A DNA stretch of 64,000 nt from Squalus acanthias (Eukaryota). Positions 8,764-61,716 of the stretch are shown here, in pieces. Each line of letters starts with the position of its first letter. Positions within the stretch are counted from its first letter, which is position 1. The notes beneath the pieces are model-generated. The model worked only from the letters and a program-made list of their open reading frames with translations, made no database searches and was not told where the DNA came from. The DNA lies in contig CM059432.1 in assembly GCA_030390025.1 (NCBI GenBank), positions 5,456,001 to 5,520,000 on the forward strand, read 5' to 3'. Position numbers and translations under genes: made by a program.

Positions 8764-8945
8764 CTAATGTTCCACGAGAATTGAGTCTGGGGTATGAAAA
8801 AAGCTGAGCCTTGAAAGAACTTTTTTCCTCTCCTTTTACTAAATATTAGAAAAGTGTAAAACTCTTCCCCTTCATGGTCAGTGCACAGCTTTCATGGCGC
8901 ATAGGGGTATAAATTGGTTCGGGTTCCCTGCTTTCTTCAGCTACG

Positions 8946-9181
8946 TTGCGGAGATGCCGGTGTTGGACTGGGGTGGACAAAAATGAGAAGTCGCACAACA
9001 CCAGGTTATAGTCCAACAGTTTTATTTGAAATTACGAGCTTTCGGAGCGCTGCTCCTTCGTCAGGTGAAGTGAAGGAATACGTATTCCTTCACTTCACCT
9101 GACGAAGGAGCAGCGCTCCGAAAGCTCGTAATTTCAAATAAAACTGTTGGACTATAACCTGGTGTTGTGCGACTTCTCATT
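8946..9181. mobile_element. Palindromic mini Penelope-like element (family A), non-coding
   Basis: Perfect inverted repeat 8979-9184 centred on aata-CG-tatt. 33-nt one-sided tail at 8946-8978. 14-bp TSD tttcttcagctacg at 8932-8945 and 9182-9195. Homologous to the ends of 41406-43909. Confidence 0.9.
9094..9132 (+). ncRNA. Minimal type I hammerhead ribozyme motif (mirror copy at 9031-9069 on -)
   Basis: tcac-CTGACGA-aGGAGC-agc-GCTCC-GAAA-gcTC-gtaa: CUGANGA/GAAA core, helix II, very short helix III. Confidence 0.75.
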
Positions 9182-9453
9182 TTTCTTCAGCTACGACTGT
9201 GACTCAGTTTAAGTTACAAGCCTCTGCGCCACAAAGAAATTGAAGATGTCGATTACGTACGTGATGACCAGGGGTACGATTTGGGTGGTGTTTACAGTGT
9301 GGTACCAGGTCACTCGTTCTGCAGTGCACCTTTAATCGTGCTGTAGATTCTGGTACCAGTTTCAATAAAAATGCATCAGAGCGGAGCTCGTCAAACTGTG
9401 CCAGACTCAGTGTTTGCTAAACTTACGTTTTTTGTTTCCTCGTTGTTTTCCAG

Positions 9454-22284: not shown

Positions 22285-23070
22285 CAGAATGGTTCCGGGG
22301 ATTGGGGGGATCTGAGCTACAAGGACAGGTTGGAGAAGCTGGATTTGTTTTCATCAGAACAAAGGAGGTTGAGGGGTGATTTGATCGAGGTGTACAAGAT
22401 TATGACGGGTTTGGATAGGCTAGACGGGGAATGGCTGTTCCCACTAGTTGATGGTACAAGGATTAGGGGGACACAGATTTAAGGTTTTGGTCAAGAGATA
22501 CAGGGGGGATGTGAGGAAAAACTTTTTTACACAGCGAGTGGTGAGGACCTGGAACTCGCTGCCGACGGAAGTGGTGGAAGCGGAGACACTCAATGTTTTC
22601 AAGGGGAGACTGGATAGGCACTTGAGGGAAATAAACTCGCAGGGCTATGGGGATAGAGCGGGGAATGGGACTGACTGGATTGCTCCACAGAGAGCCGGCA
22701 CAGACTCGATGGGCCGAATGGCCTCCTTCTGTGCCGTTATGACTCTATGACTATGACAGTCCCCTCTTCGTTGGGATGGTAGATGACTGAACCACAACTT
22801 TCTTCCGAGGTGTCACACCGTTGGGTGAAATTTGAACTTGTTAAAAATCTGCCCGATACGTTTCTGTTTCATGACCGTGTCTTGCTGTCGGTTCATTCTT
22901 CAATGGTTTACAAGTGTTATCAGCCATATTTGGAACAGAGGAGGCTGAGGGAGACTTAATTGAGGTGTATAAAATTATGAGGGGCCTAGATAGAGTGGAT
23001 AGGAAGGACCTATTTCCCTTAGCAGAGGGGTCGATAACCAGGGGGCAGAGATTTAAAGTAATTGGTAGAA
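22285..23070 (+). mobile_element. Two CR1 3' fragments (~22285-22757 and ~22930-23070)
   Basis: RRLRGDLIEVYKIM..FFTQRVV..WNSLP, with a (ctatga) tail on the first. Confidence 0.8.
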
Positions 23071-23640
23071 GAGAGAGAGGGGAGAGAGAGCAAGGGGAGC
23101 GGGGGGGAGAGGGAGAGGGTGGAGATAGAGAGAGGAGGGGGAGAGGGGAGAGAGAGAGGGGGGGAGAGAGAGAGAGGGGAGGGGGAGAGAGAAAGAGGAG
23201 GGGGGAGAGAGGGGAGAGACAGGGGAGAAGAGGGAGAGGAGAGAGAGGAGGGGAGAGACAGGGGAGAAGAGGGAGAGAGAAGGGAGGGGGAGAGACGGGG
23301 AGAGGAGGGAGAGGGGAGAGAGAGGGTGAGAGAGAAAGGGGAGCAGCGGGAGAGGGAAAGGGGGAGAGAAAGGGGGAGAGGGAAGGAGGGGGAGAGGAGG
23401 GAGAGAGATAGGAGGGGAGAGGGAGGGGGAGAGAGAGAGAGAGAGGGGAGAGAGAGAGAGGAGGGGGAGAGAGAGAGAGGGGAGAGAGAGAGAGGAGGGG
23501 GGGAGAGAGAGAGAGGAGGGGGAGAGAGAGAGAGGGGAGAGAGAGAGAGAGAGGGGAGAGAGAGAGAGAGGGGAGAGAGAGAGAGAGGAGGGGAGAGGAG
23601 AGAGGGGGAGAGAGAGGGAGGAGTGGATGGGAGGTCAGGA
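23070..23640. repeat. Polypurine G/A low-complexity tract
   Basis: About 570 nt almost exclusively G and A on the + strand. Confidence 0.95.
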
Positions 23641-35061: not shown

Positions 35062-36320
35062 CAAAGCATTTTAAAACCCTCTTTTATATCAACAGATTTT
35101 TTTTTTGGTTAACTAATTAAAGAGCAGGGCAGTTTTACCCAGTATCCTGTCCAGCATTGAGGCAGCTGTGGCTCAGTGGGTAGCACCCTCGTCTCTGAGT
35201 CAGAAGGTTGTGGGTTCAAATCCCACTCCATAAGATTTGAGTATAAAAATCTAGGCTGACACTCCCAGTGCAGTGCTGAGGGAGCGCTGCACTGTCAGAG
35301 GTGCCGTCTTTTGGATGAGACGTTAAATCGAGATCTCTGCCTGCTCTCTCAGATGGACATAAAAGAGTCTGCCTCCACCACCCTGTCAGGCAGTGCATTC
35401 CAGATCCTAACCACTCGCTGCTTAAAAATGGTTTTTTTCACGTCGCCTTTGGTTCTTTTGCCAATCACCTTAAATCTGTGTCCCTGGTTCTCAACCCTTC
35501 CGCCAATGGGAACAGTTTCTCTCTATCTACTGTGTCCAGACCCCTCATGATTTTGAACACCGGGGAACAGCTCCACCAATGTATTTTGTAGGTACGTCAA
35601 AAGCAGCTCCAAAGGGCAGTTAAGAGTCAACCACGTTGCTGTGGGTCTGGAGTCACATATCGGCCAGACCGGGTAAGGGCGGCAGATTTCCTTCCCTAAG
35701 TGAACCAGATAGGATTATTACAAGCAATCCAGTAGTTACACTGAGTCACCATTACTGATACTCGCTTTTGGTTTTTAAATGCCAGATTTGTTGAATTAAC
35801 TGAATTTAAATTCCCCAGCTGCTAGGGGGCGGGTGTGGGGATTTGAACTCATGTCCCATCAGAACATTAGTCCTTGGATTACTAGTCCAGTAACATAATC
35901 GCTATGCAACCATTCAGACTGGCGTTGGCTGCTGGTTACTTGGATTGCCTGAAAGGGTGGTGGAGGCAGACTCTTTTATGTCCACCTGAGAGAGCAAGCA
36001 GAGATCTCGATTTAACGTCTCATCCAAAAGACAGTGCCTCTGACAGTGCAGCACTCCCTCAGCAGGGAGTGTCAGCCTAGATTTTTATGCTCAAATCTTA
36101 GGGAGCGGGATTTGAACCCACAACCTTCTGACTCAGAGGCAAGGGTGCTACCCACGGAGCCACAGCTGATGCAATGCTGGACAGGATACTGGGTAAAACT
36201 GCCCTGCTCTTTAATTAGTTAACCAAAAAAAAAATCTGTTGATATAAAAGAGGGTTTTAAAATGCTTTGGAGCTGCTTTTTTGACGTACCTACAAAATAC
36301 ATCGGTGGAGCTGTCCCCTG
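35062..36320. repeat. Local inverted duplication (35062-35392 / 35946-36269 and 35561-35614 / 36265-36320)
   Basis: Reverse-complement identity extends through unique flank, a SINE and a SINE/CR1 junction. Confidence 0.9.
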
Positions 36321-38350: not shown

Positions 38351-38498
38351 AATTTAATTGAACAAATCTCTTTTTATTCTGGTTGATTATAAATTTTATT
38401 TCTTGCACGTTACACTTCACGGCTGATTTTTTTCCTGCCGTGTGCACATCCCGAACCTTCAAGTGAATATCAGGTTGAGACTAGTGCACAACTGTTTA

Positions 38499-39260
38499 AA
38501 ATAAAAAGAGAAGATGCTGGAAACGCTCAGCAGGTCAGGCAGCATCTGTGGAGAGAGAAAACAGAGAGTCAACGTCTCAGGTCGATGACCTTTCGTCAGA
38601 ACTGGAAAAAAGTTCTGCGATGCGGTCTCCTCTACATTGGGGAGACCAAACGCAGATTGGGTGATCGCTTTTGTTGAACACCTCCGTTCAGTCCGTAAGG
38701 GTGACCCCGAGCTTCCGGTCGCCTGTCACTTTAATTCTCCGCTCCACTCCTACTCTGACCTCTCCGTCCTCGGCCTCTTACACTGTTCCAATGAAGCTCA
38801 ACGTAAGCTCGAAGAACAGCATCTCATCTTTCGATTCGGCACTTTACAGCCTTCTGGACTCGACATCGAGTTCAACAATTTCAAATCATAACCTCTGCCC
38901 CCATTTTTTCGGACGGCAGCTGCTGATTGTCTGCCATTCCCATTTACACCTTTTCTAGACCCATCTTTTGTTTCTTTACTTGTCCCATTACCATCTCCTT
39001 TTGCCTCGCACCATCATCCCTTTTGTCATTTAATCTCTCCTGCCTTCCACCCTATCACAGACCTTCCCTTTTGTTCTTTCCTCCACTCCCCCCTTTCCCT
39101 GCCTCTGTACTTGCTTAAAACCTGTTAAATCGCTAACCTTTTCCAGTGCTGACAAAAGGTCATCGACCTGAAACGTTAACTCTGTTTCTCTCTCCACAGA
39201 TGCTGCCTGACCTGCTGAGTATTTCCAGCATTTTCTCTTTTTATTTCAGATTTTTGCTTT
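38499..39260 (+). mobile_element. Fold-back PLE family B insertion (GIY-YIG remnant plus terminal repeat, with inverted arm ~38499-38613)
   Basis: GLLYIGETKR..EHLRSV..PVACHFN..RKLEEQHLIFRFGTLQPSGLDIEF. Hammerhead-like motifs at 39145-39181 (+) and 38567-38603 (-). Confidence 0.85.
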
Positions 39261-40160: not shown

Positions 40161-40736
40161 TTATTAATGCATACAAGGTTGACAATTGCGCCAGGGAAAC
40201 AGAAGCAGCAACATTCTGCGTACTCCTTCCAAATCGTATTCCTGTCTGAGCCCCAACAGTAAACAAGGCAAGCTTGCGGGAGATTGTTACGGTGTTATCG
40301 CTCTGGTCCTACAGCACAGCCTCACTTACCATTCAACCTTTTGAAAGCGTTGCCGAGCAAAGGGCTGCCTGCTGATTTGTGCTGCCTCTTGCCTTCCGGC
40401 TGTTACGCTGCACAGAAAACAAAGAAAGAATTTCCTTCGATAAGGCCATTTTGACAACTCGATTTATTGCGCTGTGTTTATCTGTAAAGTTTACTTTTTT
40501 TGTGCTTACGTTGATCAGATACTGATCTTTTTAAAAATTGAATTGGGACATTTTGCTCCATTAAAGGCGCTATAAATGTGAACATTGGAACCTAGGAATG
40601 GGAGGAGGCCATTCAGCCCCTCGAGCCTGTTCCACCATTCAGTGAGATCACGGCTGATCCGTATCTTAACTCCATCCACCCGCCTTGGTTGCGTAACCTT
40701 TAATACCCTTGCCCAACAAAAATCTATCGTTCTCAG

Positions 40737-40963
40737 TGACGTAAGAAAACTACTAGGCACTTGGTCTAAGCGTTAAACAAAGCTTTAATCAACTGTTTTA
40801 CAACATGGAGGTCTAGTTGTGTCCGTCACTAGTTCCTGTTAAGAATGTCCTGCACAAGCTGGGCCCGTGCCCGAGTATTTATACTCTCCCTGGACAGCGC
40901 CACCCACAGGCCACTCAGTATTATTTCATAAGTCTTTCTTTCATGAATGACAGATTCATGTCA
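40737..40963 (-). mobile_element. Solo LTR (227 bp) inserted in a CR1 3' end
   Basis: TGAC..GTCA termini and 5-bp TSD ctcag (40732-40736, 40964-40968). On the - strand, TATAAA precedes ATTAAA. The host CR1 continues across it. Confidence 0.8.
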
Positions 40964-41828
40964 CTCAGTTTTGAAATTTTCAATTGACCGCCCCCCTCCC
41001 CCCCTCTGCCCCCCCCCCCCCCCCAGCCTCAACACCTTTTTGTGGGAGAGAGTTCCAGATTTCCACCACCCATTGTGCTTCCTGACATCACTCCTGAACG
41101 GCCTGGCTCTAATATTTAACGTCATGCTGGAGAAATGCAAGTTGTTGTTGTCTTTGTTGTTGTTGACGAGGATTCATTCATATTGTGGCATTTGCCTCCC
41201 TGATCACCGGCAACAGGCTTGTCACCGCCGGTAGCCTGGCTGTTTTATTGGGAGGGGCCACAGTTTGAATCAATTGGCACAAAACGGAGAGATGCGGGCT
41301 GGTGCCTAAAGCTGCCCCACTCTGCTGAACTTTTAGTCTCAGCCGCACTGCTTAAAGAAACTGCTAAACCTAATTGAAGCTCCAGCCCTGGGAAGGCAGG
41401 TAAAATTGAGAGGTCGCACAACACCAGGTTATAGTCCAACAGTTTTATTTGAAATCACAAGCTTTCGGAGCTATCGATTGCTCCTTCCTCAGGTGAAGTA
41501 AATTAGATACAGAATCGCCAAAGCATATATAGATAGAAAACAAAGCATGTGTACTTTACAATTGCAGACCAATAAATTAAATCATCCTGACTATCTGCCG
41601 AGGTGTGATAAAGTTAATTAAGTCAGCCAGGAAGGTACCACATCAAAGACATAGCAAGATACAACTGAGACAATGAGGTGTAGTCGCAGGGGTTCTAACG
41701 TGTCAAAAGCTGCCGTCTGTATGTAAAACGAAAAGCTTTAAAAAAATTTTACTTTTTTACTGGGAAAATTTTTACTTTTTTACTGGGAATCACATCTGTG
41801 AACAACCTAACGACGACTCGAGTCCGGA

Positions 41829-43415
41829 TCACGTCATGTATCGTGACATAAACCCAAGATCCCGATTGAGACCGTCTTCATGAGTGCGGAACTTGGCTAT
41901 CAGTTTCTGCTCGATGATTTTGCGTTGTCGTGTGTTTCTAAGGTTGCCTTGGAGAACGCTTACCCGCAGATCCGAGGCTGAATGTCCTTGACTGCTGAAG
42001 TGTTCCCCGACTGGGAGGTAACAATCCTGCCTGGCGATTGTTGCGCGGTGCTCGTTCATATGTTGTCTCAGTGTCTGCATGGTCTCGCCGATGTACCATG
42101 CCGCGGTGCATTCTTTCCTGCAACGTATGAGGTAGACAACGTTGGCCGAGTCACATGAGTATGTACCATGTACCTGGTGGGTAGTGTCCTCACGTGTGAT
42201 GGTGGTATCTGTGTTGATGATCTGGCATGTCTTGCAGAGTTTGCCGTGGCAGGGTTGTGTGGTGTCGTGGTCGCTGTTATCCTGAAAGCTGGGTAATTTG
42301 CTGCGAACGATGGTACTTCTGAGGTTAGGCGGCTGTTTGAAGGCAAGTAGTGGAGGCGTGGGGATGGCCTTAGCAAGGTGTTTGTCGTCATCGATGACAT
42401 GTTGAAGGCTGCGAAGAACATGGCGTAGTTTCTCCGCTCCGGGGAAGTACTGGACGACGTAGTTGTTGGTTGTGTCCCGTGTTTGCCTTCTGAGGAGGTC
42501 TATGCGATTTTTCGCTGTGGCCCGTCGGAACTGTCGATCGATGAGTCGAGCGTCATATCCCGTTCTTACGAGGGCGTTTTTCAGCGTCCGTAGGTGTCCA
42601 TCGCGTTCCTCCTCGTCTGAGCAGATCCTGTGTATTCGCAGGGCTTGTCCATAGGGGATGGCTTCTTTAACATGGTTAGGGTGGAAGCTGGAGAAGTGGA
42701 GCATCGTGAGGTTGTCCGTGGGCTTGCGGTAGAGTGAAGTGCTGAGGTGTCCGTCTTTGATGGAGATTCGTGTGTCCAGGAATGAGACCGATTCTGAGGA
42801 GTAGTCCATGGTGAGTTTGATGGTGGGATGGAACTTGTTTATGTTATCGTGTAGTCTTTTCAGTGATCCTTCGCCATGGGTCCAAAGGAAGAAAATGTCG
42901 TCGATGTATCTGGTGTACAGCGTTGGCTGGAGGTCCTGTGCAGCGAAGAAGTCTTGCTCGAACTTGTGCATGAAGATGTTGGCGTATTGGGGTGCGAATT
43001 TGGTCCCCATGGCTGTTCCGTGTGTTTGGGTAAAAAAATGGTTGTCGAAGGTGAAGACATTGTGGTCAAGGATGAAGCGGATGAGTTGTAGGATGGCGTC
43101 TGGAGATTGGCTGTTGTTGATGTTGAGTACTGAGGCTGTTGCAGCGATGCCGTCATCGTGGGGGATACTGGTGTAGAGTGCCGATACGTCCATCGTGGCA
43201 AGGAGTGTTCCTGGTTCAACTGGTCCGTGGGTGCTGAGTTTCTGTAAGAAGTCTGTAGTGTCGCGACAGAAGCTGGGGGTTCCCTGTACGATGGGTTTCA
43301 GAATGCCCTCGACGTATCCAGAGAGGTTCTCACACAGGGTTCCATTGCCTGATACGATAGGACGTCCGGGTGTGTTGGCTTTGTGTATCTTTGGGAGGCA
43401 GTAGAAGTCTCCCAC
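41829..43415 (-). CDS. PLE polyprotein fragment: reverse transcriptase + Cys linker + GIY-YIG endonuclease (Neptune-like)
   Basis: FYCLPKIHK..PGRPIVS, ATMDVSALYTSIP, GTAMGTKFAPQYANIFM, RYIDDIF, FLD, CHGKLCKTC and NVVYLIRC..WYIGET..EH. 528 codons without a stop; the N-terminus is lost at the inversion. Confidence 0.93.
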   Translation of the reverse strand: MGDFYCLPKIHKANTPGRPIVSGNGTLCENLSGYVEGILKPIVQGTPSFCRDTTDFLQKLSTHGPVEPGTLLATMDVSALYTSIPHDDGIAATASVLNINNSQSPDAILQLIRFILDHNVFTFDNHFFTQTHGTAMGTKFAPQYANIFMHKFEQDFFAAQDLQPTLYTRYIDDIFFLWTHGEGSLKRLHDNINKFHPTIKLTMDYSSESVSFLDTRISIKDGHLSTSLYRKPTDNLTMLHFSSFHPNHVKEAIPYGQALRIHRICSDEEERDGHLRTLKNALVRTGYDARLIDRQFRRATAKNRIDLLRRQTRDTTNNYVVQYFPGAEKLRHVLRSLQHVIDDDKHLAKAIPTPPLLAFKQPPNLRSTIVRSKLPSFQDNSDHDTTQPCHGKLCKTCQIINTDTTITREDTTHQVHGTYSCDSANVVYLIRCRKECTAAWYIGETMQTLRQHMNEHRATIARQDCYLPVGEHFSSQGHSASDLRVSVLQGNLRNTRQRKIIEQKLIAKFRTHEDGLNRDLGFMSRYMT

Positions 43416-43781
43416 GCGGGGAGTACGTGGGATGAGAGCGCGTAGGATGTTTTGAAGGTCTGGATCGAAGGTCTTGATCAGCTATTGAGTTGGCGGGTGT
43501 GTAAAAAAGTAAAAACAGTAAAAAAGTAAATTTTTTTTAAAGCTTTTCGTTTTACATACAGACGGCAGCTTTTGACACGTTAGAACCCCTGCGACTACAC
43601 CTCATTGTCTCAGTTGTATCTTGCTATGTCTTTGATGTGGTACCTTCCTGGCTGACTTAATTAACTTTATCACACCTCGGCAGATAGTCAGGATGATTTA
43701 ATTTATTGGTCTGCAATTGTAAAGTACACATGCTTTGTTTTCTATCTATATATGCTTTGGCGATTCTGTATCTAATTTACT

Positions 43782-43823
43782 TCACCTGAGGAAGGAGCAA
43801 TCGATAGCTCCGAAAGCTTGTGA
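43782..43823 (+). ncRNA. Minimal hammerhead ribozyme motif (mirror at 41455-41496 on -, sense to the ORF)
   Basis: TCAC-CTGAGGA-aGGAGC-aatcgata-GCTCC-GAAA-gctt-GTGA, with palindromic AAGCTT at helix III. Confidence 0.75.
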
Positions 43824-43980
43824 TTTCAAATAAAACTGTTGGACTATAACCTGGTGTTGTGCGACCTCTCAATTTTGTCCACCCAGTCCAACACCGGCAT
43901 CTCCGCATCAAGGCAGGTAAAACCAGAGTACAATTATTACTGAACCGCTGTAATGCACAATGACGTTCATGAATTGGTTC

Positions 43981-44440
43981 AAGAACGTAAGAAATAGGAG
44001 CAGGAGTCGGCCATATGGCCCCTCGAACCTGCTCTGCCATTCAATAAGATCATGGCTGATCATCGACCTCAACTCCACTTTCCCGCCCGATCTCCATGTC
44101 CCTCGATTCCCCAAGAGTCCAAAAATCTATCTATCCCTGCCTTGAATATGCTCAACGACTGAGCATCCACAGCCCTCTGGGGCAGAGAATTCCAAAGATT
44201 CACCACCCTCTGAGTGAAGAAATTCCTCCTCATCTCAGTCTTAAATGGCCAACCCCTTATTCTGAGACTGTGCCCCCTATTTCTAGACTCTCCAGCCAGG
44301 GGAAACAACCTCTCAGCATCTACCCTGTCAATCCCCCTCAGAATCTTGTATGTTTCAATGAGATCACCTCTCATTCTGCTAAACTCCAGAGAGTACAGGC
44401 CCATTCTACACAATCCCTCCTCATAGGACAGCCCTCTCAT
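43981..44440 (-). mobile_element. CR1 3' fragment
   Basis: MRGLSYEE..RMRGDLIETYKIL..FFTQRVVNLWNSLP. Confidence 0.88.
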
Positions 44441-57365: not shown

Positions 57366-58386
57366 TATCATGGGCAAGAGATACAGGGGGGATGTGAGGA
57401 AATACTTTTTTACGCAGCGAGTGGGGAGGACCTGGAACTCGCTGCCGATGGAAGTGGTGGAAGTGGAGACACTCGATGTTTTCAAGGGGAGACTGGAGAG
57501 GCACTTGAGGGAAATAAACTTGCAGGGCTACAGGGATAGAGCGGGAGGAATGGGACTGACTGGATTGATCTACAGAGAGCCGGCACAGACTCGATGGGCC
57601 GGATGACCTCCTTCTGTGCCGTTATGACTATGTGCCGAGTCAAGACCAATATCACAAAAGCATCCTACAGCAAGAGGATAAAATATTTTAATGAAGCTTT
57701 TTAATTTTCCAACTCACGCCCTGGACTTACGATCCAATATGGCGGGTGGTGCACTTTTGGCGTGGATTGAATGCTTGCGCGCGCGCGCCTCCCACCAGTT
57801 TGGATCTTGCGCCACCCGTTTTACGTCTGGATCGGATTGCTAGACCGCAAGTGGTAATGAATTAGCATCATTCGATTGGCTGGGTAAATGCAATGATGTG
57901 TGTTTAAATGGGTGGCAGAATGAGGTTAAATACTGCAAATATAATTGGGTTGACATCTCTGTTAAAATAGCAGAGGTTGGAATTTGATACACGTGCTTTA
58001 AGCATTCGTACAAATAACATCAGCAATTTCCATCCTTGGACTTTAAGGATGACAACTATTGGAAAGAATTAGGTCACCAGCCTATTAGGAGGAAGTAGTT
58101 TAGCCAATCAGATATATCCATCTCCTTTATGAATTAGTATTTGGGCAGCTAATTTTATCCGCAGATTTTTTATGTAACAGGTTTTAACATCGTGTGTACA
58201 TGATACAACAACAACTTGAAATTATACAGCGCCTTTAACTTAATAAATCATCCCTAGGCGCTTCATAGGAGCGTTATCAGACAAGATTTGACACCGAGCC
58301 ACATAAGGAGAAATTAGTGCAGATGACTAAATGCTCGTTCAAAGAGGTAGGGCATTCTGGAGGGGGAGGGTGAACAGCCAGTTGTC

Positions 58387-58731
58387 GTGGTGCATATAGG
58401 TACCAACGATATAGGTAAAAAACGGGATGAGGTCCTAAAAGCTGAATATAGGGAGTTAGGGGGTAAATTAAAAAATAGGACCACAAAGGTAGTAATCTCA
58501 GGATTTCTACCAGTACCACGTGCTGGTCAGAGTAGAAATAGAAGGATATTTCAGATGAATACGTGGCTAGAGGAATGGTGCAAGGGGGAGGGATTCAAAT
58601 TCCTGGGACATTGGAACCGGTTCTGGGGGAGGTGGGACCAGTACAAACTGGACGGTTTGCACCTGGGCAGGACCGGGACCGATGTCTTAGGGGGAGTGTT
58701 TGCTAGTGCTGTTGGGGAGGGTTTAAACTAA
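58387..58731 (+). CDS. CR1 ORF1 C-terminal SGNH/GDSL esterase domain (5'-truncated)
   Basis: VHIGTND and DGLHL motifs. Confidence 0.85.
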   Translation: MVHIGTNDIGKKRDEVLKAEYRELGGKLKNRTTKVVISGFLPVPRAGQSRNRRIFQMNTWLEEWCKGEGFKFLGHWNRFWGRWDQYKLDGLHLGRTGTDVLGGVFASAVGEGLN

Positions 58732-58916
58732 AATGGCAGGGGGTTGGAAACCTGTGCAGGGAGACAGAGGAAAGGGAAGCGAGGATAGAAACAAAAGACA
58801 GGAAGGAAAAAAGCAAAAGTGGAAGGCAGAGAAATCAAGGGTGTAAATCAAACAGGGCTACAGTAAATAATAATTCTAAAAGGACTAAGAGTGTTAAAAA
58901 AACAAGCCTGAAGGCT

Positions 58917-61716
58917 TTGTGTCTTAATGCGAGGAGCATTCGTAATAAGGTGGATGAATTAGCTGTGCAAATAGATGTAAACGGATATGATATAATTGGG
59001 GTTACGGAGACATGGCTCCAGGGTGACCAAGGCTGGGAATTCAACATCCAGGGGTATTCAATATTCAGGAAGGACAGACAAAAAGGAAAAGGAGGTAGGG
59101 TAGCATTGCTGGTTAAAGAGGAGATTAACACAATAGTAAGGAAGGATATTAGCTCTGATGATGTGGAATCTGTATGGGTAGAGCTGAGAAATACCAAGGG
59201 GCAGAAAACGTAAGTGGGAGTTGTATACAGACCCCCAAACAGTAATGCTGAGGTTGGGGATGGCATTAAACGGGAAATTAGAGACGCATGCAATAAGGGC
59301 ACAGCAGTTATCATGGGTGACTTTAATCTACATATAGATTGGGCTAACCAAATTAGTAACAATACTGTGGAGGAGGAATTCCTAGAGTGTGTACGGGATG
59401 GTTTCCTGGACCAATATGTCGAGGAACCAACTAGAGATTAGGCCATCTTAGACTGTAATTTTATGTAATGAGAAAGGATTAATTAGCAATCTTGTTGTGC
59501 GAGGCCCCTTGGGGAGGAGCGATCATAATATGATAGAATTCTTCATTAAGATGGAGAGTGAAGTAGTTGACTCAGAGACTAGGGTCCTGAATTTAAATAA
59601 AGGAAACTACGATGGTATGAGGCGCGAGTTGGCTAGGATGGATTGGGGAACGTTACTTAAAGGGTTGACGGTGGATAGGCAATAGCAAACATTTAAAGAT
59701 CGTATGGATGAACTACAGAATTTGTTCATCCCTGTTTGGCATAAAAATAAAACAAAAAAGGTGACTCAACCGTGGCTAACAAGGAAAATTAGGGATAGCA
59801 TAAGATCCAAGGAGAGGACATATAAATTGGCCAGAAGAAGCAGCAAACCTGAGGATTGGGAACAGTTTAGGATTCAGCAAAGGAGGACAAAGGGATTAAT
59901 TAAGAGGGGGAAAATAGAGTATGAGAGTAAGCTTGCAGGGAACATAAAATCTGACTGTAAAAGCTTCTATAGATATGTGAAGAGAAAAAGATTGGTGAAG
60001 TCAAGCATAGTTCCCTTGCAGTCAGAATCAGGGGAATTTATAATGGGGAACAAAGAAATGGCTGACGAATTAAATACATACTTTGGTTCTGTCTTCACAA
60101 AGGAGGACACAAATAACCTCCCAGAGGTGTTGGGGAACAGAGGGTCTAATGAGAGGGAGGAATTGAATTAAATCAGTATTTGTAGGGAAATGGTGTTAGG
60201 GAAATTGACGGGATTGAAGGCCGATAAATCCCCAAGGCCTGATAATCTACATCCTAGGGTACTTAAGGAAGTGGCCCTAGAAATAGTAGATGCATTGCTG
60301 GTCATCTTCCAAAATTCTATAGAATCTGGCACAGTTCCCATGGATTGGAGGGTAGCTAATGTAACCCCACTATTTAAAAAAGGTGGTAGAGAGAAAACGG
60401 GGAATTATAGACCGGTAAGCCTGACATCGATAGTGGGGAAAATGCTAGAGTCCATTATAAAAGATGTAATAGCAGAGCATTTGGAAAACTGTGACAGGAT
60501 CGGACAAAGTCAACATGGATTTACAAAAGGTAAATCATGCTTGACTAATCTACTGGAATTTTTTGAGGATGTAACTGGTAGAATAGATAAGGGAGAACCA
60601 GTGGATGTGGTGCATTTGGACTTTCAGAAGGCTTTTGATAAGGTCCCGCATAAGAGATTAGCGTGCAAAGTTAAATCACATGGGATTGGGGGTAAGGTAC
60701 TGACTTGGATAGAGAACTGGTTGGCAGACAGGAAGCAAAGAGTTGGAATAAACGGGTCTTTTTCCGAGTGGCAGGCAGTGACTAGTGGGGTACCGCAGGG
60801 ATCGGTGCTAGGACCCCAGCTATTCACAATATATATTAATGATCTAGTCGAGGGAACTAGATGTAATATCTCCAAGTTTGCAGACGACACAAAGCTGGGT
60901 GGGTGTGTGTGCTGTGAGGAGGATGCAGAGAAACTCCAGTATGATTTGGACAGGTTGGGTGATTGGGCAGATGCATGGCAGATGCAGTATAATGTGGATA
61001 AATGCGAGGTTATCCACTTTGGTGGCAAAAACAGGAAGACAAATTATTATCTGAACGGCAATAGATTGGGAAAAGGGGAAGTGCAACGAGACCTGGGTGT
61101 CCTTGTGTACCAGTCACTGAAGGTAAGCATGCAGGTCCAGCAGGCGGTTAAGAAGGCAAATGGTATGTTGGCCTTCATAGCGAGAGGATTCGAGTACAGG
61201 AGCAAGGATGTCTTGCTGCAGTTGTACAGGGCCTTGGTGAGACCACACCTTGAGTATTGTGTGCAGTTTTGGTTGCCTTATCTGAGGAAGGATGTTCTTG
61301 CCATGGAGGAAGTGCAGCGAAGATTCACCAGACTGATACCTGGGATGGCAGGAATGACGTATGAAGAGAGATTGGGTCGATTAGGCTTATATTCGCTGGA
61401 GTTTAGAAGAATGAGAGGGGATCTCATTGAAACTTATAAAATTCTAACAGGACTAGACAGACTAGATGCAGGAAGGATGTTCCCGATGGCGGGGGAGTCC
61501 AGAACCAGGGGTCACAGTCTAAGGATAAGGGGTAAGCCATTTAGGACTGAGATGAGGAGGAATTTCTTCACCCAGAGAGTGGTGAACCTGTGGAATTCTC
61601 TACCACAGAAGGCAGTAGAGGCCAATTCATTAAATATATTCAAGAAGGAGTTAGATATATTTCTTAAGGCTAAAGGGATCAAGGGATATGGGGAGAAAGC
61701 AGGGACAGGGTACTGA
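58917..61716 (+). pseudogene. CR1 ORF2 (APE endonuclease + RT) with premature stops; RT half open at 60190-61716
   Basis: CLNARSIRNK, GVTETWL, MGDFN, SDHN, NYRPVSLTS, DFQKAFDKV, GVPQGSVLGP and FADDTK. Stops end at 59213, 59441, 59685 and 60171. Confidence 0.93.

What the first reader, a model, noticed from the sequence alone, without database searches (positions are those of the whole stretch)
41393..43922. Young Neptune-like PLE with open RT-GIY-YIG ORF enclosed by ~380-bp inverted ribozyme-bearing arms
Seen: a 528-codon uninterrupted ORF (RT, CxxxxCxxC linker, GIY-YIG), near-identical inverted arms at 41402-41783 / 43501-43876, a perfect 13-bp TSD and a hammerhead motif in both arms. Inference: this is a recently active family that could supply the enzyme for the palindromic mini copy. 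Any transcript through it would fold into a panhandle.
Basis: partly seen in the sequence, partly recalled or inferred. Interest (0 to 1): 0.7.

Follow-up and report, generated by a model that had tools for sequence, protein, structure and literature searches.

The report
Young, truncated shark Penelope-like insertion
This is a recent, cleanly preserved insertion of a known kind of jumping gene (a Neptune-type Penelope-like retroelement) in a shark-type genome, but the copy is cut short and damaged, so it is a passenger and not a source of the enzyme.

Summary
The described features are real: 13-bp target duplication, inverted arms (345 nt perfect from the outer end), a minimal hammerhead motif in each arm, and a 528-codon stop-free frame with RT, Cx4CxxC linker and GIY-YIG. 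Youth is supported: about 0.8% from near-consensus contigs, and one other sample appears to hold the empty site (indirect). Motifs match Neptune, not Poseidon or Nematis; closest proteins are shark (91%). Inverted pLTR plus one-sided tail plus TSD is published PLE architecture. One mechanistic point: each half holds sequence the other lacks, so simple fold-back cannot build it; two cDNAs primed from the two target strands fit best. The palindromic mini copy (8932-9195) is a related subfamily (87-89%); this copy cannot serve it, an intact relative could. The scan noted similar Penelope insertions elsewhere in this genome. New member of a known kind; low interest.

The parts
41393..41405 (+). 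Left copy of the 13-bp target-site duplication; its last four A's are also the first four bases of the left arm
   Evidence: contig X4 record 17 matches the flank up to exactly 41405 and then leaves the window sequence
41402..41783 (-). Left arm: 3' pseudo-LTR contiguous with the ORF, sense on the minus strand, ending at the T-tract without the tail
41456..41495 (-). Minimal type I hammerhead motif in the left arm (same strand as the ORF)
   Evidence: descriptor scan; features as in PMC4209133; cleavage untested
41784..41828 (-). 3' untranslated stretch between the stop codon and the duplicated arm
41829..43481 (-). 5'-truncated RT + linker + GIY-YIG frame, 550 codons stop to stop, 528 from a GTG at 43415; lacks about 320 N-terminal residues
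42060..42062 (-). Codon 474, His where homologues have the conserved GIY-YIG Arg; a CpG-type change
   Evidence: Arg in 97 of 100 homologues covering the site and 15 of 15 Heptranchias-labelled ones; 95-100% of laid depth in four runs has the other letter
42461..42464 (-). Site of a net 6-nt in-frame deletion removing part of the conserved RVP(F/Y) motif
   Evidence: motif present in 18 of 18 close homologues covering it
42225..42251 (-). Cx4CxxC linker motif (aa 411-419)
43482..43502 (-). Last 21 nt of ORF-derived sequence, out of frame with the rest through a 1-nt deletion; family ORF continues beyond 43502
   Evidence: frames; extra base at 43481 in other copies; 255-nt loose end behind 43502
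43501..43502 (.). Head-to-head inversion junction with a 2-nt (GT) microhomology
43501..43876 (+). Right arm: inverted 5'-truncated copy of the pseudo-LTR
43783..43822 (+). Minimal type I hammerhead motif in the right arm (strand opposite to the ORF): 4-bp stem I, CUGAGGA, extra A, 5-bp stem II, GAA, palindromic AGCU, predicted cut after 43819
43877..43909 (+). 33-nt PLE 'tail', present on this end only
   Evidence: other copies carry the same letters next to the arm end (loose ends at 41402)
43910..43922 (+). Right copy of the 13-bp target-site duplication
8932..9195 (.). Related mini insertion: 14-bp TSD (8932-8945, 9182-9195), 33-nt tail (8946-8978), perfect palindrome of two 103-nt arms (8979-9184); 3 T's shared between untailed end and TSD

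Best explanation
A single, recent retrotransposition event of a Neptune-clade Penelope-like element in a shark-type genome, dead as a coding copy. Protein made by some intact copy elsewhere cut the two target strands 13 bp apart. The top-strand 3' end (ending in AAAA) primed cDNA at the inner start site of the element RNA (a U-tract) and ran about 2.1 kb, stopping two thirds of the way up the ORF. The bottom-strand 3' end primed a second cDNA at the outer start site, 33 nt further 3', and ran about 410 nt. The two cDNA ends were joined head to head over a 2-nt microhomology and filled in, giving inverted arms, a tail on one side and the TSD. Shown: the anatomy, the truncation and lesions, the clade motifs, low divergence. 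Indirect: absence of the insertion in another sample. Inferred: the two-primer order of events, mobilisation in trans, loss of endonuclease activity, any ribozyme activity.
For: Anatomy. Truncation: 36 homologues of 800 aa or more that align from the query start have a median of 322.5 extra N-terminal residues (226-382) and DKG upstream in 36 of 36; an organism-C contig runs on 255 nt past 43502 in ORF sequence. Lesions. Clade: RT motif 4 reads GTAMGTKFAPQYAN, like the published Neptune rows and unlike the Penelope/Poseidon and Nematis rows; linker CxxC-to-C spacer 23 aa, long as in Neptune rows (about 24-27) and unlike Nematis (about 7-10) (comparison by eye). Youth: 13 substitutions in 1679 nt (0.8%) against seven long organism-C contigs; arms perfect over 345 nt. 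Empty site: X4 record 17, 410 nt, depth 9.67, matches 41084-41405 with no difference and leaves 88 letters unlaid, which is the length expected for 58 unique right-flank bases plus 30 into the repeat that starts at 43981; its left end likewise lies 30 nt inside a repeat. Two primers: the long half lacks the tail and the short half lacks the ORF, so neither can be a copy-back of the other; both halves read as antisense cDNA attached to a target 3' end; the anole PLE protein cuts and extends both strands and starts at two sites that bound the tail (PMC11167929).
Against: The 88 letters of record 17 were not displayed, so the empty allele is inferred from length; run X1 had no cover of the flank. 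No named reference PLE could be put in the tree, so the clade rests on motifs. The organism-C contigs are a stand-in for a consensus and their origin is unknown. The extra base at 43481 is seen in 100% of depth in X8 and X12, 50% in X4 and 1% in X1, so that frameshift may be shared with part of the family. Many of the listed differences are shared with a large share of copies (subfamily variation), and 32 of 72 rows of that table were not shown. The catalytic role of the Arg is recalled (I-TevI Arg27), not found in a paper here (0 papers); PMC8557442 only calls it conserved. PMC11167929 found no homology between start site and cut DNA in vitro and no difference in start site between strands.
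Confidence: 0.85

Rival explanations
1. One reading: this copy still encodes a working RT-endonuclease (from the GTG or the codon-97 ATG) and can supply enzyme to mini copies.
For: 528 codons without a stop; RT motifs MDVS and YIDD, both Zn-binding motifs and the conserved E and N are intact.
Against: No N-terminal third, no DKG, no ATG before RT motif A, no direct upstream pLTR; the GTG is a wobble position where much of the family reads GTA (43413); RVP deletion; His at the conserved Arg.
Confidence: 0.03
2. The inverted arm arose by self-priming (fold-back) of one cDNA or by copying an antisense template, as proposed for rotifer Penelope elements, and not by two target-primed cDNAs.
For: PMC3846280 reads palindromic junctions as self-priming on an antisense template (passages); the mini copy is a perfect palindrome with equal arms, which fold-back explains simply.
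Against: In the long copy the junction is not palindromic, and each half holds sequence absent from the other (tail versus ORF), which intramolecular fold-back cannot give; an antisense template or a template jump to a second molecule is still possible.
Confidence: 0.25
3. The insertion is older and fixed; the arms look identical because inverted repeats were homogenised by gene conversion, and the ORF lesions arose in place.
For: At least four sites outside the arms differ from 95% or more of the laid depth in X4 (41806, 42061, 42786, 43120), plus a deletion, while the arms are identical over 345 nt.
Against: At that low divergence (about 0.2-0.8%) zero differences between the arms has a fair chance (about 0.2 at 0.24%, my estimate); TSD perfect; apparent empty allele in another sample.
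Confidence: 0.08
4. The inverted structure is an assembly artefact of a high-copy repeat.
For: PMC8557442 notes that such structures trouble assemblies; no laid contig was shown bridging the inversion junction.
Against: A clean 13-bp TSD, a one-sided tail and small differences between the arms at their inner ends; same architecture in the mini copy and in published elements.
Confidence: 0.03

Closest known systems
Neptune-clade Penelope-like elements (Neptune1_Ac, DrerioNep1, Neptune1_Nv, XtropNep4 rows in Craig et al. 2021, PMC8557442)
   Same: RT followed by Cx2-5CxxC linker with long spacer and C-terminal GIY-YIG with CCHH; AMG..FAP.YAN form of RT motif 4; inverted 5'-truncated pLTR, 30-40-bp tail at one end, hammerhead in the pLTR.
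   Different: A shark family not named in the papers searched; this copy is a truncated, damaged member.
Adineta vaga Pen2/Pen2a copies (Arkhipova et al. 2013, PMC3846280; passages)
   Same: Incomplete ORF flanked by inverted pLTRs, 9-10-bp TSD, optional 31-bp tail on one inverted pLTR.
   Different: Different clade (near Perere10); here the TSD is 13 bp and the junction is not palindromic.
PAc, Poseidon element of Anolis carolinensis (Frangieh et al. 2024, PMC11167929)
   Same: Tail = sequence between two internal RT start sites; AT-rich target; hammerhead just upstream.
   Different: Poseidon lacks the linker Zn-finger; start sites reported as non-homologous to the cut DNA, whereas here the untailed end shares 4 (long copy) and 3 (mini copy) T's with the target.
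Minimal hammerheads of metazoan PLEs (Cervera and De la Pena 2014, PMC4209133)
   Same: [quoted passage not shown]
   Different: Nothing notable; activity here untested, and theirs was low and needed dimers.
Unannotated PLE-derived proteins of sharks (Heptranchias perlo XP_067848012.1 and 53 cluster members; Scyliorhinus, Mustelus, Chiloscyllium models)
   Same: 82-92% identity over long stretches; window groups with the two Heptranchias rows (99/97 support).
   Different: They keep the Arg and the RVP motif; labelled 'uncharacterized protein'.

Membership tests
EN+ Penelope-like elements | Single ORF with PLE-type RT and C-terminal GIY-YIG endonuclease | tested here: met
   Pfam GIY-YIG hit on homologue P0023, not on the window protein itself
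EN+ Penelope-like elements | CCHH Zn-finger in the endonuclease (two Cys between GIY and YIG) | tested here: met
   CRKEC between VVYLI and WYIGET; His478 and downstream His present
EN+ Penelope-like elements | Pseudo-LTR in direct or inverted orientation, 30-40-bp tail on one end, variable TSD | tested here: met
   definition in PMC8557442
EN+ Penelope-like elements | Hammerhead motif in the pLTR | tested here: met
   descriptor scan and fold (z -1.5, weak on its own); no Rfam hit; cleavage not tested
EN+ Penelope-like elements | N-terminal conserved motifs and DKG upstream of the RT core | tested here: inconclusive
   absent from this copy through truncation; present in 36 of 36 long homologues
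Neptune clade | Cx2-5CxxC linker between RT and EN (shared with Nematis, absent in Penelope/Poseidon) | tested here: met
   CHGKLCKTC, aa 411-419; definition
Neptune clade | Neptune-type RT motif 4 and long linker spacer, as against Nematis | tested here: met
   by-eye comparison with Figs S1 and S2 rows of PMC8557442; spacer 23 aa, 22-26 aa in 82 of 120 homologues that fit the pattern
Neptune clade | Placement among named Neptune RTs in a phylogeny | not testable with these tools
   tree of 45 rows holds no named reference; the clade is paraphyletic in PMC8557442
Penelope/Poseidon clade | No linker Zn-finger; MGSP.SP form of RT motif 4 | tested here: not met
Naiad/Chlamys | N-terminal endonuclease | tested here: not met
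   endonuclease is C-terminal
Autonomous (intact) PLE copy | Full-length ORF with start codon, upstream direct pLTR and conserved EN residues R, H, E, N | tested here: not met

The most novel reading that the evidence does not exclude
The locus is a clean genomic record of double target-primed reverse transcription by a PLE: each target strand primes its own cDNA at a different one of the two internal start sites, the inner site using 3-4 A:U pairs between the cut DNA end and the RNA U-tract, and the two cDNAs are then joined head to head. This would explain inverted pLTRs, the one-sided tail and the TSD in one step, differ from the homology-free priming reported for the anole Poseidon element, and be testable on the very many copies of this young, apparently still polymorphic shark Neptune family.
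Probability: 0.5. Interest if true: 0.35.

Novelty: new member of a known kind. Interest (0 to 1): 0.17.

Why it matters
Little by itself: the architecture is in print for several PLE clades and the copy is dead. It does show that a Neptune-type family in a shark-type genome is very abundant and young enough that individuals seem to differ in this insertion, which makes it a usable marker and a large natural data set for how PLEs make inverted ends and tails, a step that the in vitro work leaves open. Sharks are thinly covered in the PLE papers found.

Tried and rejected
No genome is held, so genomic copies and full-length members could not be counted. Rfam at E<=1 gave two microRNA-family chance hits and no hammerhead. 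PDB sequence search gave one weak RT hit, E 0.4. The sigma-70 promoter scan is irrelevant to an animal and gave chance-level counts. The RNA-guess run X8 covers the element but not the unique left flank 41124-41375; X1 (55% read) does not cover 41208-41375; neither is evidence of absence. Summed contig depth (X4: 3.4 million at the pLTR end, 0.36 million at the 5' end, 9.67 on the flank) shows abundance and a 5'-truncation gradient but is not a copy number. The tree (first 45 rows of 81 eligible, the rest left out) cannot name the clade. Pfam scan of 84 of the 89 long frames of the window (the 5 inside the element left out) found only retroelement domains in 7 frames, no host gene, so an intronic position is neither shown nor excluded. 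The inverted pair at 35062-36269 is not related to this element (no blastn match). Literature: 'GIY-YIG, catalytic, Arg27, I-TevI' 0 papers; 'Penelope, twin priming' 3 papers, listing only, none on PLE mechanism by title; 'hammerhead, Penelope-like, shark' 1 paper, where shark is only a figure of speech. PMC9977147 passages added nothing. Searches of earlier scan findings by sequence and by nearby place returned nothing.

Full report
Observation. The 13-mer AAGGCAGGTAAAA stands at 41393-41405 and 43910-43922 and nowhere else in the window; 0 of 2000 shuffles of the two end regions gave such a match. The arms 41402-41783 and 43501-43876 are 98.2% complementary; the one mismatch and the 6-nt indel lie in an A/T-rich stretch at the inner end, and 345 nt from the outer end are perfect. 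The minus-strand frame 43481-41832 is 550 codons from stop to stop, 528 from a GTG at 43415. A minimal hammerhead motif lies in each arm (43783-43822 on +, 41456-41495 on -): 4-bp stem I, CUGAGGA, one extra A, 5-bp stem II, GAA and a palindromic AGCU in place of stem III. My descriptor gave 3 hits in the window, two of them these, against a mean of 0.1 in 50 shuffles; Rfam does not detect it. These traits are those listed for PLE minimal hammerheads in PMC4209133 (parts 1-2 of 4 read), which cleaved only weakly and as dimers.

First, 33 nt (43877-43909) lie between the right arm and the right TSD and have no counterpart on the left, where the arm end overlaps the TSD by four A's. This is the PLE 'tail'. 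Second, the frame is a fragment. The best homologues are shark gene models (Heptranchias perlo, 91%; 1688 proteins at E<=1e-20, 120 listed). Among these, 36 of 800 aa or more align from the query start and carry a median of 322.5 further N-terminal residues, with DKG in 36 of 36; the window frame has none of this and its first ATG is codon 97. A contig from run X12 follows the ORF to 43502 and goes on for 255 more letters in ORF-like sequence, so the family does extend 5'. Third, the copy is damaged: a net 6-nt deletion at 42461-42464 removes part of an RVP(F/Y) motif present in 18 of 18 close homologues that cover it; codon 474 is His where 97 of 100 homologues and 15 of 15 Heptranchias-labelled ones have Arg, and 95%, 98%, 100% and 100% of laid depth in runs X1, X4, X8, X12 has the Arg letter, a CpG-type change. 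This Arg is marked as conserved in the published alignment; that it is catalytic I recall from I-TevI and did not find in a paper here. A 1-nt deletion at 43481/2 also puts the last 21 nt out of frame; it may be shared with part of the family (extra base in 100% of X8 and X12 depth, 50% of X4, 1% of X1).

Clade. The linker CHGKLCKTC excludes Penelope/Poseidon and the C-terminal endonuclease excludes Naiad/Chlamys, by the definitions in PMC8557442 (Introduction, passages, supplement parts 1 and 54 and search hits read). The 23-residue spacer after CxxC and the form of RT motif 4 match the Neptune rows and not the Nematis rows of its Figs S1-S2 (by eye). A tree of 45 rows groups the window with the two Heptranchias proteins (99/97) inside a shark-containing set (100/99), but holds no named reference. 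I file it as Neptune on motifs.

Age. Seven long contigs of run X12 (labelled another organism, C) differ from the window by 13 substitutions in 1679 nt, 0.8%, plus the indels; an eighth, a variant with 6 differences in 120 nt, was left out of this count. Whatever their origin (a relative, or mixed DNA), they behave like a near-consensus of a young subfamily. In run X4 a single 410-nt contig of depth 9.67 matches the left flank 41084-41405 without a difference and then leaves the window sequence for 88 letters. An empty site predicts exactly this: 58 unique bases of right flank (43923-43980) plus 30 into the repeat starting at 43981, just as the contig's left end lies 30 nt inside another repeat. 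A filled allele would have gone on into the arm, and a heterozygote would have broken the contig at 41405. The letters were not displayed, so this is indirect. It suggests that the insertion is absent from at least one other sample. Summed depth over the element is about five orders above the flank and falls ninefold from the pLTR end to the 5' end in X4; this shows a very abundant, 5'-truncating family but is not a copy number.

Mechanism. Read 5' to 3', the top strand is target ending in AAAA followed by antisense element from the T-tract through 2.1 kb; the bottom strand is target followed by antisense tail and 376 nt of pLTR. The two meet at 43501-43502 over a shared GT. The long half lacks the tail and the short half lacks the ORF, so neither can have been copied back from the other. 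The simplest account is two target-primed cDNAs, one per strand, from the two start sites that bound the tail, joined at their ends. PMC11167929 (parts 1-2 of 4 read) shows for the anole Poseidon protein that both strands are cut and extended and that the tail is the stretch between two internal start sites; it does not, in what I read, spell out this joining model, reports no homology between start site and cut DNA, and sees no strand difference in start sites. PMC3846280 (passages) prefers self-priming on an antisense template for palindromic junctions, which fits the mini copy as well. In both insertions of this window the untailed end shares T's with the target (4 and 3); with n = 2 and an AT-preferring endonuclease this is a hint only. 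The likeness to twin priming of L1 is recalled; one search (listing only) showed no paper applying it to PLEs, which is weak evidence of absence, and supplements of bioRxiv papers were not visible.

The mini copy and the panhandle. At 8932-9195 lies a 14-bp TSD, a 33-nt tail and a perfect palindrome of two 103-nt arms, 87-89% identical to the long copy's end, with a different stem II loop. It is a sister subfamily's short insertion; the long copy cannot have supplied its enzyme, a related intact copy may have. A transcript across both arms of the long copy would pair over 345 bp (-678 kcal/mol), but the two hammerheads lie on opposite strands, so such an RNA carries one motif and its complement and the motif would be buried. 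No such transcript was shown.

Comparison and verdict. An inverted 5'-truncated pLTR, a 30-40-bp tail at one end and a hammerhead in the pLTR are described as general PLE traits, and rotifer copies with incomplete ORFs, inverted pLTRs and 9-10-bp TSDs are in print. A 2026 preprint (10.64898/2026.07.22.740005; part 1 of 5 and passages) finds Neptune and Poseidon widespread in vertebrates. Earlier notes of this scan describe hairpin insertions, short hammerhead-bearing ends and an intact tandem PLE elsewhere in this genome; they are unchecked, and a sequence look-up did not tie them to this family. The surroundings are LINE and SINE debris with no host gene detected. This is a new member of a known kind: real, young, non-autonomous. 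Interest 0.17.

Noticed in passing
window 38460-39260: A second, older PLE relic of another family: an endonuclease fragment (38676-38843, 46% to the long copy's protein) between inverted ends of about 135 nt that carry a CUGACGA-type hammerhead core; no clear TSD found.
   Followed up: partly
window 35062-36269: Nested inverted repeats (205-nt arms, 96%) around tRNA-like SINE sequence and LINE pieces; unrelated to the PLE by blastn.
   Followed up: no
runs X6, X12, X16 (organisms B, C, D) against window 40500-44000: Runs labelled as three other organisms hold 43-53% of the words; X12 contigs are 99.2% identical to this element at low, even depth. Close relatives, horizontal transfer or mixed DNA are all open.
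   Followed up: partly
window 60172-61713: A 514-codon open frame with RVT_1 (E 3e-32), with Exo_endo_phos and GDSL-like pieces upstream (58351-59210): a fairly well preserved CR1/L2-type LINE.
   Followed up: no
window 41741-41790 and 43501-43535: A short tandem duplication in the pLTR (two units of about 21 nt) is complete in the left arm and shortened by 6 nt in the right arm right at the inversion junction, perhaps a slip made during joining.
   Followed up: no
window 23037-23634: A 600-nt purine/pyrimidine-skewed low-complexity array.
   Followed up: no
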